A DNA stretch of 60,962 bases, the filler included, from Circinaria calcarea (taxonomy: Eukaryota), in NCBI GenBank assembly GCA_051942165.1. It is 15 parts of 15 records of this genome, joined end to end, with 100 filler letters (N's around TTAATTAATTAA, not from the genome) between each part and the next. Parts side by side here need not be neighbours in the genome. Positions count along the whole stretch, not along the records: positions 40,746 to 44,713 come from JAVECS010002530.1; 14 more parts are not named here. One strand, 5' to 3'. Below the pieces are notes generated by a model that saw only the letters and a program-made list of their open reading frames with translations, was not told the DNA's origin and ran no database searches. Numbering within the stretch: the stretch's first letter is position 1; each line of letters opens with the position of its first letter. Shown one piece after another: positions 40,646-45,820 of the stretch. Position numbers and translations under genes: made by a program.

Positions 40646-40745
40646 NNNNNNNNNNNNNNNNNNNNNNNNNNNNNNNNNNNNNNNNNNNNTTAATTAATTA
40701 ANNNNNNNNNNNNNNNNNNNNNNNNNNNNNNNNNNNNNNNNNNNN

Positions 40746-40799
40746 TTTGCATATTTTTTAATAATAGTACCTTTAATAAGTCTATTTGAAAATAGTTTA
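40746..40799 (+). CDS. cob: Mitochondrial apocytochrome b, last transmembrane helix / C-terminal segment; the frame stays open into cox2
   Basis: FAYFLIIVPLISLFENSL matches the conserved ascomycete Cob ending (YFxYFxxIVPxxSLxENxL); only 18 codons are visible. Confidence 0.8.
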
Positions 40800-41207
40800 G
40801 CAGAGATGCCCGTTAACTTAGAAAACATTAAATCTAACACAGAAGATTCTTTTTCTCTGTCTCTGCCTCTGCAAGCAGGTTTTACAACGCAAGTATCAGG
40901 CAAATCCTCTAATTTAAAAGAGTGAACTGTAGATTACAAAGTGGACTACGATAGTCATGTGTATAAAAACGACCTAATAGCTAGATTCGAGGAGGAGACT
41001 AAATTATGTTATGAGAGATTAGACCAACTTTATGATGATAACTTTGCACTTCGTCAGATAATTAAAAGATTAAAAGAAAAAGAATATCTTGATAGTGAAA
41101 AAGATTTAAATCGTAAGAATGATGACAAAGATGATGTCTTAGTTAGTTCCATTTTACCAGCCAAGATAATAAGTACATATAACCTATGCTTATTCTCATG
41201 CGTTTTA

Positions 41208-41978
41208 ATGCTAACTTATTTAGCTAATGTTATAAAAGGTTATAACCTTTTAGAATACTGTGATACTCCAAGACCTTGAGGTGTATATTTTCAAGATAGT
41301 GCTACACCACAAATGGAAGGTTTAGTAGAACTTCATGACAATATCTTGTTTTATTTAGTAATTATCTTATTTGGTGTTGGTTGAATCTTAGTTTCAATAG
41401 CTAGAAATTACAGGACTGAAGAGTCACCTATTTCACACAAATATTTAAATCATGGTACATTAATTGAATTAATTTGAACAATTACACCTGCCTTGATTTT
41501 AATACTTATAGCCTTTCCATCTTTCAAGTTATTATACTTAATGGATGAAGTTAGTGATCCTGCTATGTCTGTTTTAGCAGAAGGACATCAATGATATTGA
41601 AGTTATCAATATCCTGATTTCTTAAACAGTGACGAAGAATTTATTGAATTTGATTCCTATTTAGTTCCAGAATCTGATTTGGAAGATGGTGCACTAAGAC
41701 TGTTAGAAGTCGATAATAGAGTTATTTTACCAGAATTAACACATGTTAGATTTATTGTTACTGGTGCGGATGTTATACATTCTTTTGCTTGTCCTGCTTT
41801 AGGTATTAAATGTGACGCATATCCAGGTAGATTGAGTCAAGTTTCTGTTTTAGTTAACCGTCCAGGGACTTTTTACGGTCAATGTTCAGAAATTTGCGGT
41901 ATTCTTCACAGTTCCATGCCAATTGTAATAGAATCCGTTTCCATAGAAAAATTCTTGGCCTGATTAGAAGAACAGTAA
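41208..41978 (+). CDS. cox2: Mitochondrial cytochrome c oxidase subunit 2 (code 4), intronless
   Basis: [42 protein letters not shown] and CuA motif [18 protein letters not shown] at conserved Trp positions; nearest in-frame ATG at 41208; TAA at 41976-41978. Confidence 0.98.
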
Positions 41979-41994
41979 TTCTAAAAAAAAAAAA

Positions 41995-43725
41995 ATGACA
42001 TTTTTAAGACCTGTATTATATTTATTACCTTCTATCTCCTTACAACTAATTAAGGATAAAAGTCTCTTATCTTGCTTTATTTACTTCGCACTAAATTTTA
42101 TTTGCATTGCGGTTGGCTCTTTAACTACAATTTTAAATTGTTTGATTAATTTAATGAGTGCTCTACCAATGGGTTTTTTCTTCGTTATTTTACTTATTAT
42201 ATTATATATATTAAGATACCTTTATTCTAATAAACCTGAAGTTATTTTTAAATGGTTTAAATTCTTTTGGATTTTACATTTTAGTATATTAGCTATTATA
42301 TTATTATGGAATAGTCCAGATTTAGCTTTAAGATTATATCCTATGGATAATGTATTTAGTAACCTATTTAATGAGAGGTTACTAAGCTGTTTTTATTACT
42401 ATACTGTTTTAGCTTCTCTCTCACTATATATATATACTATAGTATTATATAGTGTAAAATTAAAAGATAGTTGTAGTAGTTATAACTATTATCTAGCACG
42501 CATGTATGTATTATATCTTACATATAAGGAGAGGATTTCATGGGGTTTAATCTTTAATCTGATATTGATATTAGTAATGTGCATCTTTTTTAAATTTGCA
42601 CTCTTGTGCTTTATCTGTTTTGTTTCTAGTGTAAAGCCCGGTATATATATAATATTTTTTCTAAATATATCTTTTATACGTATACTAGCCTTTTTTTATA
42701 ATAAAGTCTATAAGTTAAGAGAAGAAAAGCCAATAAGAACTGTTTTATTTTCTATTTTTATTACATGAATTTTGGCTATTTCTATATTTGAATTAAATTT
42801 GTATCTATTTGGTGGATGCTTTATTGTTTATTTATGATACAACTATTTTGATGATAAATTGATCTGTAATAAGACAAATATTTTATCTTTTGATAATTAT
42901 GCGCAAAAAGCTGAGTATATTTCTAACCTGGAGAATTTATCTGATTTAGATAAATCCAATTTGTTGATGGACGAGATAGTTAATGTACATAATGAAATTA
43001 ATAATAATACAAGAAATAAACAATTTAATAGTAAGATAGAACTGCCACAAATAGAACTGCCTAGTGAATTTTATGATTCTGATTCTTGATTTAGAGGGCT
43101 AAAAGATTATACTTATCAGCTTTTTAGTTTGCTTGGTGAAACGGCTATGCAAAATAATAGAGCATTTTCTCAATATTTTCCTAATTCTTTAGGTATAGAC
43201 GGTTTAATATTTGAACCAAGATATGTTGATATACATAGAATACATGCACTTAGTGTCCTCCATACTTCTAGTGATATATGTAAGGTAAGACATCAATGAT
43301 CTTTAAAAGCTTATGATATTTTACATGATCCTCGTCGTTATCCTACATATCCTACAGATGGCTCTAGGAGTGTTAAATTTAGAGATCTAGAAAATATAGA
43401 TCTAGAGCAATATATGTTTATTAAAAATATTGTACAAAAGTTCGGGGATGCACATTTTAATTCTAAATTAGAAGATGGTGTAACTTCTGTTAATAATGTT
43501 TTAGTAGCTTTACATGATCACATGCACACTTTAGAAGAAATGGCATATAGAATGGATCGTTTGTTCACAAAATCTTATAAGAAGATGCATGAATTACATG
43601 AAGCAACGGATAATCTTTATCTACCTCTTATTTCCAAGAATATATCAGATGGACACTTACCTTTATTTAAAAGTAAAGGTATAGTCTTACCTTTTCCTAT
43701 AGTATTCTTCGGAGATCGATCTTAG
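41995..43725 (+). CDS. Unidentified mitochondrial ORF, 576 aa (code 4): hydrophobic multi-TM N-half, soluble C-half
   Basis: Track ORFs 41995, 42859 and 43414 share one frame and are separated only by TGA codons; the gaps were read codon by codon with no TAA/TAG until 43723-43725. Confidence 0.8.
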
Positions 43726-44021
43726 ACTATATTATTTAGTATAAACCAGAGGGTTTAACCCTTATTTATTTTTATTAAGCTAATATATGCTGGAAGATAT
43801 ACTTATAGTATAACCCTCTATAATATTGTTATTAATACACAATATTTTTAGACGCTCGACCCAGTCGAGGATCTTAGATTTTTGGTGATAAAGTATTTTA
43901 TTTTTTATCAGTTAATTTTTTTTATTAAAACCGGTATTTAGATATCATAAATATATGATCTAAATACAAGTTTATATTTAGAAAACTAACCTTTCTAGAT
44001 ATAAGCCGGATTATCTGTCCG

Positions 44022-44092
44022 AGGATATGCGTAGATGGCTCTACATATTGATTGCAGATCTTTAATTAAGGGTTTGATTCCCTCTTATCCTT
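44022..44092 (+). tRNA. trnC: Mitochondrial tRNA-Cys (GCA)
   Basis: Acceptor AGGATAT/TTATCCT, D stem GTAG/CTAC, anticodon loop TTGCAGA (GCA at 44054-44056), T arm AGGG-TTTGATT-CCCT; the anticodon stem is weak. Confidence 0.7.
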
Positions 44093-44193
44093 TTCTTTTA
44101 TTTAATTAACTTAAGTTAATATCTAAAAGTAATTTTATAGATAACTAGTATAAGGTTTCCTTTCTAGAATAACAAAACAAAAAATAAAAATAA

Positions 44194-44418
<225 letters not shown>

Positions 44419-44493
44419 TCACATATTATAATTATATACAATATAGATATTTATTCATTATCTCTCTCTTCCTCTTACTCATCCTCTTCCTCT

Positions 44494-44595
44494 CCTCTTC
44501 CTCTTCCTCTTCCTCTTCCTCTTCCTCTTCCTCTTCCTCTTCCTCTTCCTCTTCCTCTTCCTCTTCCTCTTCCTCTTCCTCTTCCTCTTCCTCTT
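44494..44595. repeat. (CCTCTT)17 microsatellite in the mitochondrial contig
   Basis: Perfect hexamer array, directly followed by a 14-bp-stem hairpin at 44599-44634. Confidence 0.92.
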
Positions 44596-45820
44596 CCCTC
44601 ATCATAGTTTTTATTTAACAAAAAACTATGATGACCGGACGAGAGTTTTCCGGGAATTTATTTAGACTTCTAAAAAAAAAATTCTCCAAATTACATTAGT
44701 GGAGTTAATTAATNNNNNNNNNNNNNNNNNNNNNNNNNNNNNNNNNNNNNNNNNNNNTTAATTAATTAANNNNNNNNNNNNNNNNNNNNNNNNNNNNNNN
44801 NNNNNNNNNNNNNGACCAGGAGGGGGAGGCGGTGGCGGCAGTCTTGGCCGCCTTGGGTTCCTATGGTGTGTTAGCATGCTAATTGTCGACAGGAGGTTTG
44901 ATACTTACCCTCGTGAAAAAAATGGGCGCCACATTGATGATGGAGCCTTGGGGGAGGGAGGAGAGGTCGTACTGCTTACGTTTCGTCATTACTACAGAGG
45001 CTGTTAGCTATACCGACGAGGGATCAAGGAGACCAAGAGGGAGTGAAAAGAGGTATACCTACTGTAAGAGTACAGCGAGGTGGACTTGGGGAAAAGATGA
45101 ACTGGGAGGGGCTACGAGGTCTATATATATTCACTGGAGACAGGCATCAGCATCATTCACGACTTATCACATCATCATGATTACGACAACTACATCCACC
45201 CCATTACCGCTGGGATTCACCTTTGGCATGTGGTAGCGGGGACATCTCCGGGTATGGCTTCCGAGTTTCCCTCTGCTAACCCTAACTACGTCTCTCGTTT
45301 GATATGCTGTCCCTGTTATTGATTTCTTTAATCCATGTATCGAGCGTGCGATTTACTAGGAGACTATTGCATTTCATCTCCGCGCATCAGTCTCTACGTA
45401 TCATGCTCTCTGTATCTTTCAGAGTGAGTTGCGAATCGATGGCCTCGATTTTGCTGTTGTTCCTTCCCAATAAGGAATGTCTACACGTTTAACTTTAGGG
45501 TTTGAGGCTATCTTCCGATTGGTCCAACGCATGACGTGTGCAACTCTTCCCGACGAGTACAGCTCCCCATTGGCTGGATTCGATTGCGATGACGGCGGGG
45601 GGGCCTTCGCAATGACGAACGGTCCACCAGGGGGACCGTCGAGGTTATGGGAGTCTGGTGGGTAAGGGGAAGATCGGGTGCAGGGGGGGATCGGGTGCAG
45701 GGCAGGGAGGCATCGTGCATTGAGGGCCTTCTCCTTTCTTTGTGTCCACGTACATATTTCAATTGATCATTATTGATTGAGTATCTTGTGTCTCTATTGT
45801 GATCTAACGACGTGAAGATA

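What the first reader, a model, noticed from the sequence alone, without database searches (positions are those of the whole stretch)
40746..41978. Mitochondrial cob reads in frame through a ~154-codon linker into cox2: candidate Cob-Cox2 polyprotein
Seen: in code 4 one frame runs from the first base of the contig (FAYFLIIVPLISLFENSL, the Cob C-terminal segment) to the cox2 stop at 41978 with no TAA/TAG; the only stop-like codons are TGA=Trp. The linker (40800-41261) staying open for ~154 codons in very AT-rich DNA is unlikely by chance. It contains a charged helical stretch (DLIARFEEETKLCYERLDQLYDDNFALRQIIKRLKEKE) and a hydrophobic segment ([23 protein letters not shown]) just before the usual mature Cox2 start (DTPRPW). 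Established: the Cob C-terminus faces the matrix, the Cox2 N-terminus faces the intermembrane space, and fungal pre-Cox2 is cleaved there by Imp1. Inference: the extra helix would resolve that topology and let Imp1 release Cox2, co-translating complex III and IV core subunits and leaving Cob with a long tail. Alternative: transcript processing creates the cob stop and cox2 starts at ATG 41208.
Basis: partly seen in the sequence, partly recalled or inferred. Interest (0 to 1): 0.8.

Follow-up and report, generated by a model that had tools for sequence, protein, structure and literature searches.

The report
Fused cob-cox2 gene, lichen-type mitochondrion
In this fungal mitochondrial contig the cytochrome b gene runs without a stop codon through a 154-codon spacer into the cytochrome oxidase subunit 2 gene, a real arrangement already reported for lichen fungi in 2020, and how two proteins are made from it is still unknown.

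Summary
Under code 4, one frame is open from the contig's first base (40746, last 18 codons of cob) to the cox2 stop (41976-41978). The 154-codon linker has 0 stops against 6-17 in the other five frames, and 0 of 20,000 shuffles stay open.

It is not an artefact. All 5 database proteins that share this linker carry Cob and Cox2 in one ORF, one of them a full-length 772 aa. Another 15 of the 120 listed Cox2 relatives are Cob-Cox2 fusions with unrelated linkers. Metatranscriptome contigs bridge both junctions.

It is not new. The cob-cox2 fusion was reported in Umbilicaria pustulata and noted in Usnea ceratina in 2020 (PMC7186782). This scan has found it at least 8 times on other DNA.

The mechanism is unresolved. 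A polyprotein cut at the normal Cox2 maturation site (Cys|Asp, 41261|41262) is favoured: the frame stays open, 22 of 23 linkers have one hydrophobic segment, and 6 of 23 have no Met. The window keeps an ATG at the canonical pre-Cox2 position (41208), and unfused relatives use GTG starts, so separate initiation is not excluded.

The parts
40746..40799 (+). 3' end of cob (last 18 codons of the conserved part, FAYFLIIVPLISLFENSL), cut by the contig edge; no stop codon follows
   Evidence: It aligns with the Cob C-terminus of 20 fused relatives and of unfused Cob tails. An RNA contig continues upstream with codons reading LGQISTVIYF (table 7, X2 at 40749).
40800..40880 (+). Conserved N-part of the linker (27 codons, AEMPVNLENIKSNTEDSFSLSLPLQAGF). 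It starts with the natural Cob tail (xE[LM]) and contains an SLPLQ motif like the natural Cox1 C-end.
   Evidence: 25 of 27 residues identical to P0002 and 18-21 of 27 to P0003, P0005 and P0006. Motif count.
40881..41153 (+). Fast-evolving middle of the linker (91 codons), charged, with a predicted long helix at 40956-41111. It is absent from relative P0005. It contains TGA=Trp at 40923-40925.
   Evidence: 60 of 91 residues identical to P0002, whose mature Cox2 is 99.6% identical; 89 of 91 positions are gapped in P0005. AF2 helix at residues 71-122, block pLDDT 82-91 for residues 71-110, in a model that is poor overall. No Pfam match. No credible homologue among 1.84 billion representatives.
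41154..41261 (+). Conserved C-part of the linker (36 codons). It holds one hydrophobic, transmembrane-like segment (about 41160-41243) and ends in Cys at -1 of the predicted Cox2 maturation site.
   Evidence: 36 of 36 residues identical to P0002. Kyte-Doolittle segment at linker residues 123-146, maximum 2.18. AF2 helix at residues 139-166.
41208..41210 (+). ATG 18 codons before the mature Asp: candidate independent cox2 start, at about the canonical pre-Cox2 start position
   Evidence: In unfused relatives the nearest Met lies at -13 or -12 in 55 of the 64 that have a Met. In P0004-P0006 this position is Val, codon unknown.
41259..41264 (+). Predicted maturation site, Cys|Asp (TGT|GAT), where the Cox2 presequence is normally removed
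   Evidence: +1 is Asp in 70 of 70 unfused loci, 13 of 13 fused loci and 21 of 21 Cob-fused proteins. -1 is Cys in 68 of 70, 12 of 13 and 18 of 21. That cleavage happens here, and by Imp1, is recalled from yeast and Neurospora and was not tested.
41262..41978 (+). Mature cox2 (238 codons) plus TAA stop
   Evidence: Pfam COX2_TM and COX2; 97-99.6% identical to P0002-P0006.
41995..43725 (+). orf576, an unassigned mitochondrial ORF downstream (neighbour, not part of the fusion)
   Evidence: No Pfam match and no PDB sequence match. Covered by long RNA-library contigs from relatives whose listed indels inside it are multiples of three (+GGG, +GCT, +GTA) or cancel out as a +1/-1 pair.
44194..44418 (+). 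atp9 (74 codons), a neighbour that confirms the contig is mitochondrial
   Evidence: Pfam ATP-synt_C, E 7.5e-14.

Best explanation
This is a genuine mitochondrial cob-cox2 fused reading frame of the kind found in lichen-forming Lecanoromycetes. Shown: cob has no stop after its conserved ENSLxE tail. The same frame continues through a 154-codon lineage-specific linker into cox2. Relatives keep this frame open although the linker sequence and length change freely (48-279 residues). RNA-library contigs contain the linker and bridge both junctions. Inferred: mitochondrial ribosomes that start on cob read on through the linker into cox2 and make a Cob-linker-Cox2 precursor. The single hydrophobic segment at the end of the linker spans the inner membrane. 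It carries the chain from the matrix side (Cob C-terminus) to the intermembrane space (Cox2 N-terminus). The precursor is then cut at the ordinary Cox2 maturation site (Cys|Asp, 41261|41262), presumably by the inner-membrane peptidase. Cox2 is released and Cob keeps, at least at first, a tail made of a fast-evolving helical stretch and an extra membrane segment. The ATG at 41208 may be a relic of the old cox2 start or a second, parallel way in.
For: (1) Open frame far beyond chance: 0 stops against 6-17 in the other frames, and 0 of 20,000 shuffles open.
(2) A search with the linker alone found 4 of 4 hits of near length and 1 of 1 longer hit carrying Cob and Cox2 domains in one ORF. One is a complete 772-aa Cob(Met1)-linker-Cox2. 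No relative with this linker has a stop or frameshift.
(3) 15 of the 120 listed Cox2 relatives are Cob-C-terminus+Cox2 ORFs with unalignable linkers. Their nearest named Cox2 sequences are Peltigera, Heterodermia, Lecanora and Gomphillus. A frame that stays open across such divergence in AT-rich DNA, where intergenic frames carry ~8% stop codons, implies selection against stops. That selection is expected only if Cox2 synthesis depends on read-through.
(4) The middle of the linker differs at 31 of 91 residues from P0002, while mature Cox2 differs at 1 of 238. P0005 lacks this middle part altogether. The sequence is nearly free to change, but the frame is kept.
(5) 22 of 23 Cob-fused linkers have one hydrophobic segment ending 0-25 residues before the mature Asp, as the matrix-to-IMS topology requires.
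(6) The cleavage context is the same as in unfused pre-Cox2: +1 Asp in all, -1 Cys in 68 of 70 unfused and 30 of 34 fused.
(7) 6 of 23 Cob-fused linkers have no Met. In Cox1-fused relatives, 4 of 10 loci examined have neither ATG nor GTG within 45 codons of the Asp, and the only linker ATG of L020-L022 is ATC in L023-L024.
(8) RNA-library contigs bridge 40799|40800 (X3 record 16 with 0 differences, X4 record 24) and 41261|41262 (X2 record 10 and X3 record 20 with 0 differences, X4 record 27). No RNA contig joins across the linker.
(9) Published: in Umbilicaria pustulata a Trinity transcript carries the uninterrupted cob-cox2 frame (PMC7186782, passage read). Cob lacks a stop after ENSLIELA in 19 of 19 Ramalinaceae mitogenomes (PMC13706191, sections 12 and 15).
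Against: There is no protein evidence and no mapped transcript ends. The laid runs are assembled contigs, which cannot show RNA starts, ends or single molecules, and RNA libraries can hold DNA.

The RNA contigs over the middle of the linker differ from the window by 18-39 letters, so they come from relatives and not from this haplotype.

The window keeps an ATG at -18 (41208). It would give an 18-residue presequence much like canonical ones.

Where unfused relatives lack Met at the canonical place, they have GTG there in 10 of 10 loci examined. Non-AUG initiation therefore exists in this group, and Met-less linkers do not prove read-through. P0004-P0006 have Val where the window has Met, and several Met-less linkers have Val near -18.

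L035 has a 279-residue hydrophilic linker with no hydrophobic segment and a GTG at -16. That fits separate initiation better than the topology model.

The set of fused relatives is partly ascertained by being fused. The tree-based count of state changes was unreliable.

A complete cob upstream is not seen in this window.
Confidence: 0.55

Rival explanations
1. Two separately translated proteins. cox2 is translated on its own from the ATG at 41208, a canonical pre-Cox2 with an 18-residue presequence. cob translation ends without a stop codon because the transcript is cut in the linker (a non-stop mRNA), or a minor fraction simply runs on. On this view the shared frame is a historical accident of losing the cob stop.
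For: ATG at -18 in the window, ATG at -23 in L026, GTG at -16 in L035, and ATG or GTG at -17 to -20 in 3 of the 7 Cox1-fused loci examined. Unfused cob-stop-spacer-ATG-cox2 adjacency exists (L048). Unfused cox2 uses GTG at the canonical place in 10 of 10 loci examined. L035 has no hydrophobic linker segment. The Ramalina paper cites 3'-end mapping in budding yeasts in which processing removes encoded stops from nad4 and nad5 mRNAs (PMC13706191, section 15).
Against: It gives no reason for the linker to stay stop-free and in the cox2 frame across lineages with unalignable linkers of 48-279 residues. 6 of 23 Cob-fused linkers have no Met. 4 of 10 fused loci with DNA have neither ATG nor GTG nearby, and the ATG is replaced by ATC between close relatives. 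No tRNA or known RNA element that could mark a processing site lies in the contig. RNA-library contigs bridge 41208 and both junctions.
Confidence: 0.33
2. A stable, uncleaved Cob-Cox2 fusion protein that physically tethers complexes III and IV through the long linker.
For: The frame is continuous and the single linker membrane segment makes the topology possible. The 2020 paper words its suggestion as 'a single fusion protein'.
Against: The Cys|Asp maturation context is kept exactly as in unfused pre-Cox2, which suggests the same cleavage. Linker length ranges from 48 to 279 residues and the middle part can be absent, which is unlike a structural tether. In the analogous cox1/2 ORF of Acanthamoeba two products arise, as cited in PMC5626475 (passage read); the original paper was not read.
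Confidence: 0.06
3. Artefact or pseudogene. Either a mis-assembly or indel hides the cob stop, or the 18 cob codons are a duplicated fragment or a nuclear copy of mitochondrial DNA, with normal genes elsewhere.
For: Only 18 cob codons lie on the contig, at its very edge, and no whole genome is held to look for a second cob.
Against: An independent DNA contig (X1 record 1, 805 nt) covers 40746-41315 with 15 substitutions and no gap. 5 of 5 relatives with this linker have at least 210 Cob residues upstream in the same ORF, one of them the whole Cob. All 7 TGA codons sit at Trp positions, cox2 and atp9 are intact, and the contig is AT-rich, unlike its neighbours. The fusion is published for complete mitogenomes.
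Confidence: 0.03
4. The linker is an intron or other spliced or mobile insert that is removed from the RNA.
For: The middle 91 codons are absent from relative P0005, so they behave as an insertion or deletion.
Against: No Rfam intron or other family matches. The only hit at E<=1 is a sub-threshold miRNA model at 43923-43976. No RNA contig skips the linker, and the two skipping joints occur only in the DNA run, with unknown letters between (table 5). Removing the linker would still leave cob without a stop.
Confidence: 0.02

Closest known systems
cob-cox2 head-to-tail fusion in the mitogenome of Umbilicaria (Lasallia) pustulata, also noted in Usnea ceratina (Greshake Tzovaras et al. 2020, PMC7186782; passage in section 23 read)
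   Same: cob has no stop and reads in one frame into cox2. There is one transcription unit with an uninterrupted frame in RNA. The same open question remains: how the two proteins are separated. atp9 is retained in the mitogenome there, and an atp9 lies on this contig.
   Different: The organism here is unnamed and may or may not be one of those species. I could not compare linkers because the paper's supplementary figure 18 was not read. This lineage has a long (154-codon) linker with a fast-evolving helical middle part that one relative lacks.
cob lacking a stop after the ENSLIELA motif in 19 of 19 Ramalinaceae mitogenomes (PMC13706191, 2026; abstract and sections 7, 12 and 15 read)
   Same: The same conserved Cob tail motif (here ENSLAEM), followed by no stop.
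   Different: A word search of that paper's main text finds no 'cox2', 'fusion' or 'fused', so it does not link the missing stop to cox2. Its Supplementary Table S4 was not read. It also reports missing stops in cox1, nad3, nad4 and nad5, which cannot be examined on this contig.
cox1-cox2 fused ORF of Pleosporales (Stemphylium, Corynespora, Exserohilum), and of Acanthamoeba and Dictyostelium (PMC5626475, PMC8598970, PMC8956966; passages read)
   Same: An upstream respiratory gene without a stop runs in frame into cox2 through a short hydrophobic linker ending at Cys|Asp. 11 such loci were found here (L001-L003, L020-L024, L041, L077, L083). For Acanthamoeba the cited work reports one transcript and two proteins.
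   Different: The upstream partner is cox1, a subunit of the same complex, and not cob. Linkers are much shorter: 17-53 residues against 48-279.
Conventional fungal pre-Cox2 with a short N-terminal presequence removed in the intermembrane space (yeast and Neurospora; recalled, no paper read)
   Same: The same Cys|Asp-[AT]-P-R-P-W context, and an ATG at a similar distance (-18 here; -13 or -12 in 55 of the 64 unfused loci that have a Met).
   Different: Conventional genes have an in-frame stop just upstream of the start (70 of 80 metagenome loci). Here the frame is open back into cob.

Membership tests
Lecanoromycete-type cob-cox2 fused ORF | cob has no TAA or TAG after its conserved C-terminal ENSLxE tail | tested here: met
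   Unfused Cob tails stop 13-19 codons after ENSL; here none does.
Lecanoromycete-type cob-cox2 fused ORF | The same frame continues without a stop into a complete cox2 | tested here: met
   410 sense codons to the TAA at 41976-41978, with Pfam COX2_TM and COX2. 0 of 20,000 shuffles of the linker stay open.
Lecanoromycete-type cob-cox2 fused ORF | A complete, functional cob lies upstream in the same ORF, and it is the only cob | tested here: inconclusive
   The contig starts 18 codons before the end of conserved cob, and no genome is held. Relatives with the same linker have 210 to 385 Cob residues upstream. An RNA contig continues upstream as Cob (table 7).
Lecanoromycete-type cob-cox2 fused ORF | cob, linker and cox2 are present on one RNA | tested here: inconclusive
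   Metatranscriptome contigs bridge both junctions and tile the linker. These are assembled contigs, partly from relatives, so they cannot prove a single molecule or exclude DNA carry-over.
Lecanoromycete-type cob-cox2 fused ORF | The host is a lichen-forming Lecanoromycete | tested here: inconclusive
   The nearest named Cox2 is Lecanora cinereofusca at 90%. Other Cob-fused forms sit next to Peltigera, Heterodermia, Lecanora and Gomphillus Cox2. The window's own clade (P0002-P0006, P0008) has no named member.
cox1-cox2 fused ORF (Pleosporales, Amoebozoa) | The upstream partner in the ORF is cox1 | tested here: not met
   The upstream residues are the Cob C-terminal helix. Only a 5-residue SLPLQ motif resembles the Cox1 end.
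Conventional stand-alone pre-Cox2 | A start codon 12-18 codons before the mature Asp | tested here: met
   ATG at 41208, position -18.
Conventional stand-alone pre-Cox2 | An in-frame stop and a non-coding spacer upstream of that start | tested here: not met
   No stop back to the contig edge. 70 of 80 metagenome cox2 loci do have one.
Mitochondrial polyprotein cleaved after translation | A precursor protein spanning both parts, and cleavage products, seen at protein level | not testable with these tools
   No proteomic or labelling data are available. Only sequence inference.

The most novel reading that the evidence does not exclude
Cox2 synthesis in this lineage depends on ribosomes that started on cob. 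Cob-linker-Cox2 would be an obligate polyprotein that couples the output of a complex III subunit and a complex IV subunit one to one. The last linker segment would act as an internal signal-anchor cut by the inner-membrane peptidase. Mature Cob would carry a rapidly evolving matrix helix plus a ninth membrane segment. The SLPLQ motif in the linker may be a relic of an older cox1-cox2 fusion into which cob was recombined.
Probability: 0.4. Interest if true: 0.6.

Novelty: new member of a known kind. Interest (0 to 1): 0.3.

Why it matters
Fungal mitochondrial mRNAs are normally translated gene by gene under gene-specific activators. A cytochrome b that has no stop and runs into cox2 would mean either a polyprotein joining subunits of two different respiratory complexes, or translation of stop-less mRNAs. 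Neither has been shown at protein level in fungi. The arrangement itself has been published (2020) and is widespread in lichen fungi, so this locus adds an example and not a discovery. The comparative points gathered here sharpen the experiment that would settle the mechanism: one hydrophobic segment in 22 of 23 linkers, an unchanged Cys|Asp site, Met-less linkers, GTG starts in unfused relatives, and one exception without a membrane segment. The result also has a practical side. Public annotations give such cox2 genes ad hoc starts (for example 241-aa proteins beginning M-H-C-D or M-S-C-D) or mark cob as 3'-partial, which hides the fusion.

Tried and rejected
- Whole-genome search for a second cob: no genome is held.
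- tRNA punctuation between cob and cox2: no tRNA on the contig.
- Rfam at E<=1 over 40746-44713: one sub-threshold miRNA model outside the linker, and no intron or ribozyme.
- Pfam on the fused protein: only the two COX2 domains, nothing in the linker.
- HMMER search of the linker against 1.84 billion representatives: 2 hits. Both are tandem-repeat proteins whose scores sum many weak repeats (32 and 5 stretches), so I treat them as spurious.
- AlphaFold2 on the 21-sequence alignment: poor model (mean pLDDT 51.4, pTM 0.25). I used it only for the two linker helices and made no fold search.
- Cox2 tree of 204 rows to count gains and losses of fusion: 14 changes for Cob-fused against the rest. 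The 'short' label is unreliable for database proteins, because annotated or called starts can hide an open upstream frame. For example, the Peltigera, Lecanora, Heterodermia and Gomphillus entries sit next to fused ORFs. I draw no conclusion from this count.
- Viral-contig scan: 4 loci, 3 of them Cox1-fused mitochondrial contigs and none Cob-fused.
- Literature searches for a cob-cox2 fusion that returned nothing relevant. Searches found the two relevant papers.
- dN/dS of the linker: not possible, because no DNA of the close relatives P0002-P0006 could be fetched.
- Depth figures of the laid contigs were not used to rank expression.
Full report
**What the window is.** The 60,962-base window is a chain of about fifteen ~4 kb contigs joined by N44-TTAATTAATTAA-N44 spacers. 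The finding lies on the contig 40746-44713. That contig is AT-rich (24-34% G+C against 40-55% for its neighbours). Under table 4 it carries the end of cob, cox2, an unassigned orf576 and atp9, all on the + strand. No tRNA and no Rfam family at gathering level lie on it. No whole genome is held for this window.

Translation of 40746-41978 with table 4 gives 410 residues and then TAA. There is no internal TAA or TAG. Seven TGA codons are read as Trp, one of them in the linker at 40923-40925. Residues 175-398 are Cox2 (Pfam COX2_TM E 6.7e-36, COX2 E 3.5e-59). The first 18 residues are the last Cob helix and the start of its tail. The ENSLxE motif is invariant in an alignment of 21 fused proteins. 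It also occurs in three unfused Cob genes, which stop 13-19 codons later.

The 154-codon linker (40800-41261) has no stop in frame, against 17, 16, 15, 6 and 11 in the other five frames. None of 20,000 shuffles stays open. The nearby intergenic stretch has 11-14 stops per ~155 codons.

**It is not an artefact.**
- A search with the linker region alone found 4 proteins at E<=0.01 among 345 candidates of near length and 1 among 498 longer candidates. All five carry Cob and Cox2 Pfam domains in one ORF.
- Four of them begin inside Cob, probably after an intron or a caller's internal start. The fifth, P0006, is a complete 772-residue Cob(Met1)-linker-Cox2.
- An independent DNA contig (run X1, 805 nt) covers 40746-41315 with 15 substitutions and no gap.
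- No relative that shares the linker has a stop or frameshift in it.

**It is widespread.** Among the 120 best Cox2 relatives listed (of 7,869 at E<=1e-30), 15 carry a Cob C-terminal domain in front of Cox2. Six carry a Cox1 domain, plus one more by eye, P0110.

In a blind survey of 80 metagenome cox2 loci, 2 are Cob-fused (L026, L035) and 8 are Cox1-fused. The other 70 are conventional, with an in-frame stop and a short leader. Of 4 viral-collection loci, 3 are Cox1-fused.

The nearest named Cox2 sequences to Cob-fused ORFs are Peltigera, Heterodermia, Lecanora and Gomphillus, all Lecanoromycetes. Their public entries begin with ad hoc starts such as MHCDAPRPW, or with M placed where the fused ORF has V. 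The window's own clade (P0002-P0006, then P0008) has no named member. Its nearest named Cox2 is Lecanora cinereofusca at 90%.

**It is already in print.**
- Greshake Tzovaras et al. [quoted passage not shown] They leave open how the proteins are separated.
- A 2026 paper on Ramalina (PMC13706191; abstract and sections 7, 12 and 15 read) reports no stop after the Cob motif ENSLIELA in 19 of 19 Ramalinaceae mitogenomes. A word search of its main text finds no 'cox2', 'fusion' or 'fused'.
- The analogous cox1-cox2 fusion is described for Pleosporales, Acanthamoeba and Dictyostelium (PMC5626475, PMC8598970, PMC8956966; passages read).
- I found the 2020 paper before consulting the scan's notes. 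The notes list at least 8 earlier reports of the same fusion on other genomes, all pointing to that paper.
- Four further literature searches found nothing on a cob-cox2 fusion.

**Anatomy of this linker.** Comparison with P0002-P0006 splits it into three parts.
- A conserved N-part of 27 residues (40800-40880): 25 of 27 identical to P0002.
- A fast-evolving middle of 91 residues (40881-41153): 60 of 91 identical to P0002, although mature Cox2 is 99.6% identical. It is gapped at 89 of 91 positions in P0005.
- A conserved C-part of 36 residues (41154-41261): 36 of 36 identical to P0002.

The middle part is charged and is predicted as one long helix (residues 71-122; block pLDDT 82-91 for 71-110). 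The C-part is a hydrophobic helix (residues 139-166). The model as a whole is poor, with mean pLDDT 51.4. The linker has no Pfam domain. It has no credible homologue among 1.84 billion representatives. The two hits there are tandem-repeat proteins with summed weak matches.

**Evidence on mechanism, for read-through.**
- Linkers of the 23 Cob-fused forms range from 48 to 279 residues and are mostly unalignable, yet all are open and in the cox2 frame. In DNA where unconstrained frames carry about 8% stop codons, this implies selection against stops. That selection makes sense only if translation has to pass through.
- 22 of 23 linkers have one hydrophobic stretch ending 0-25 residues before the mature Asp. 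This is what is needed to bring the chain from the matrix-side Cob C-terminus to the intermembrane-space Cox2 N-terminus. That topology is established knowledge and was not tested here.
- The site itself is unchanged. +1 is Asp in 70 of 70 unfused loci, 13 of 13 fused loci and 21 of 21 Cob-fused proteins. -1 is Cys in 68 of 70, 12 of 13 and 18 of 21.
- 6 of 23 Cob-fused linkers and 8 of 16 Cox1-fused linkers contain no Met.
- Among 10 fused loci with DNA, 4 have neither ATG nor GTG within 45 codons of the Asp. The single linker ATG of L020-L022 is ATC in the close relatives L023-L024.
- In three biocrust metatranscriptome runs, contigs bridge the cob/linker junction (X3 record 16 with 0 differences, X4 record 24 with 2). 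Contigs also bridge the linker/cox2 junction including 41208 (X2 record 10 and X3 record 20 with 0 differences, X4 record 27 with 3). Contigs of relatives tile the middle, and their listed gaps cancel to keep the frame. No RNA contig skips the linker.

**Evidence on mechanism, against read-through or neutral.**
- The laid data are assembled contigs. They cannot show RNA ends or single molecules, and RNA libraries may hold DNA.
- The window keeps an ATG at -18 (41208). It would give an 18-residue presequence much like the canonical one. The nearest Met is at -13 or -12 in 55 of the 64 unfused loci that have one.
- In all 10 unfused loci I examined that lack Met at the canonical place, the codon there is GTG. 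GUG initiation of cox2 evidently occurs in this group, so Met-less linkers are weaker evidence than they look. P0004-P0006 have Val where the window has Met, and I have no DNA for them.
- L035, a Lecanora-like locus, has a 279-residue hydrophilic linker with no hydrophobic segment and a rare GTG at -16. That looks like separate initiation.
- Unfused cob-stop-spacer-ATG-cox2 adjacency exists (L048). The fusion can therefore arise simply by losing a stop.
- My attempt to count gains and losses on a Cox2 tree failed, because database start calls hide fusions.

**Verdict.**
- The locus is a real member of the published lichen-type cob-cox2 fusion, with confidence about 0.95 for that part.
- I rate a polyprotein cut at Cys|Asp at about 0.55, separate initiation at 41208 with stop-less cob translation at about 0.33, a stable uncleaved fusion at about 0.06, and artefact or intron at about 0.05 together.
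- Both routes may coexist.
- The finding is a new member of a known kind and of modest interest. The mechanism remains an open and testable question.

Noticed in passing
window 40860-40874 (SLPLQ within the linker); P0093, P0118; Cox1-fused P0007, L020-L024: The linker holds S-L-P-L-Q at residue 21. This resembles the natural Cox1 C-end (..FVSLPLQS) that precedes cox2 in Cox1-Cox2 fusions. S[LI]PL occurs at linker residues 16-21 in 4 of 23 Cob-fused linkers, from 3 independent lineages, and 0 of 5,000 shuffles reach that. I chose the motif after seeing the data, so the test is biased. It may be a relic of an older cox1-cox2 junction.
   Followed up: partly
window 41995-43725 (+): orf576 starts 16 bases after cox2. 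Its N-terminal half is rich in hydrophobic stretches and its C-terminal half is hydrophilic. It has no Pfam match and no PDB sequence match. Long RNA-library contigs from relatives run from cox2 through it (X3 record 21, 2,694 nt; X4 record 28). Their listed indels inside it are multiples of three (+GGG, +GCT, +GTA) or a cancelling +1/-1 pair. That suggests a conserved coding gene of unknown function.
   Followed up: partly
window 44466-44597: A CTCTTC hexamer repeat of 22 copies, 95% matching, lies just downstream of atp9. It produces spurious poly-Glu and Arg-Gly ORFs on the minus strand.
   Followed up: no
L031, L039, L064, L066, L074, L075, L078, L080-L082 (unfused cox2 loci): In these conventional cox2 genes the codon at the canonical start position (-13) is GTG and not ATG. 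Six of them have no ATG at all between the upstream stop and the mature Asp. cox2 in these Pezizomycotina therefore probably starts at GUG.
   Followed up: yes
P0011 (421 aa): In this ORF an N-terminal Cox1 fragment of roughly 90 residues, and not the Cox1 C-terminus, runs in frame through a short hydrophobic linker into cox2. This is a third kind of upstream partner, possibly a duplicated cox1 exon.
   Followed up: no
whole window: The window is a concatenation of ~4 kb contigs with identical artificial spacers (N44-TTAATTAATTAA-N44). Features cannot be read across 40646-40745 or 44714-44813.
   Followed up: yes
L035 2350-4605: This Lecanora-like Cob-Cox2 ORF has a 279-residue hydrophilic linker rich in Ser, Gly, Asp and Glu and lacking any hydrophobic segment. 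It is the one exception among the 23 Cob-fused forms.
   Followed up: partly
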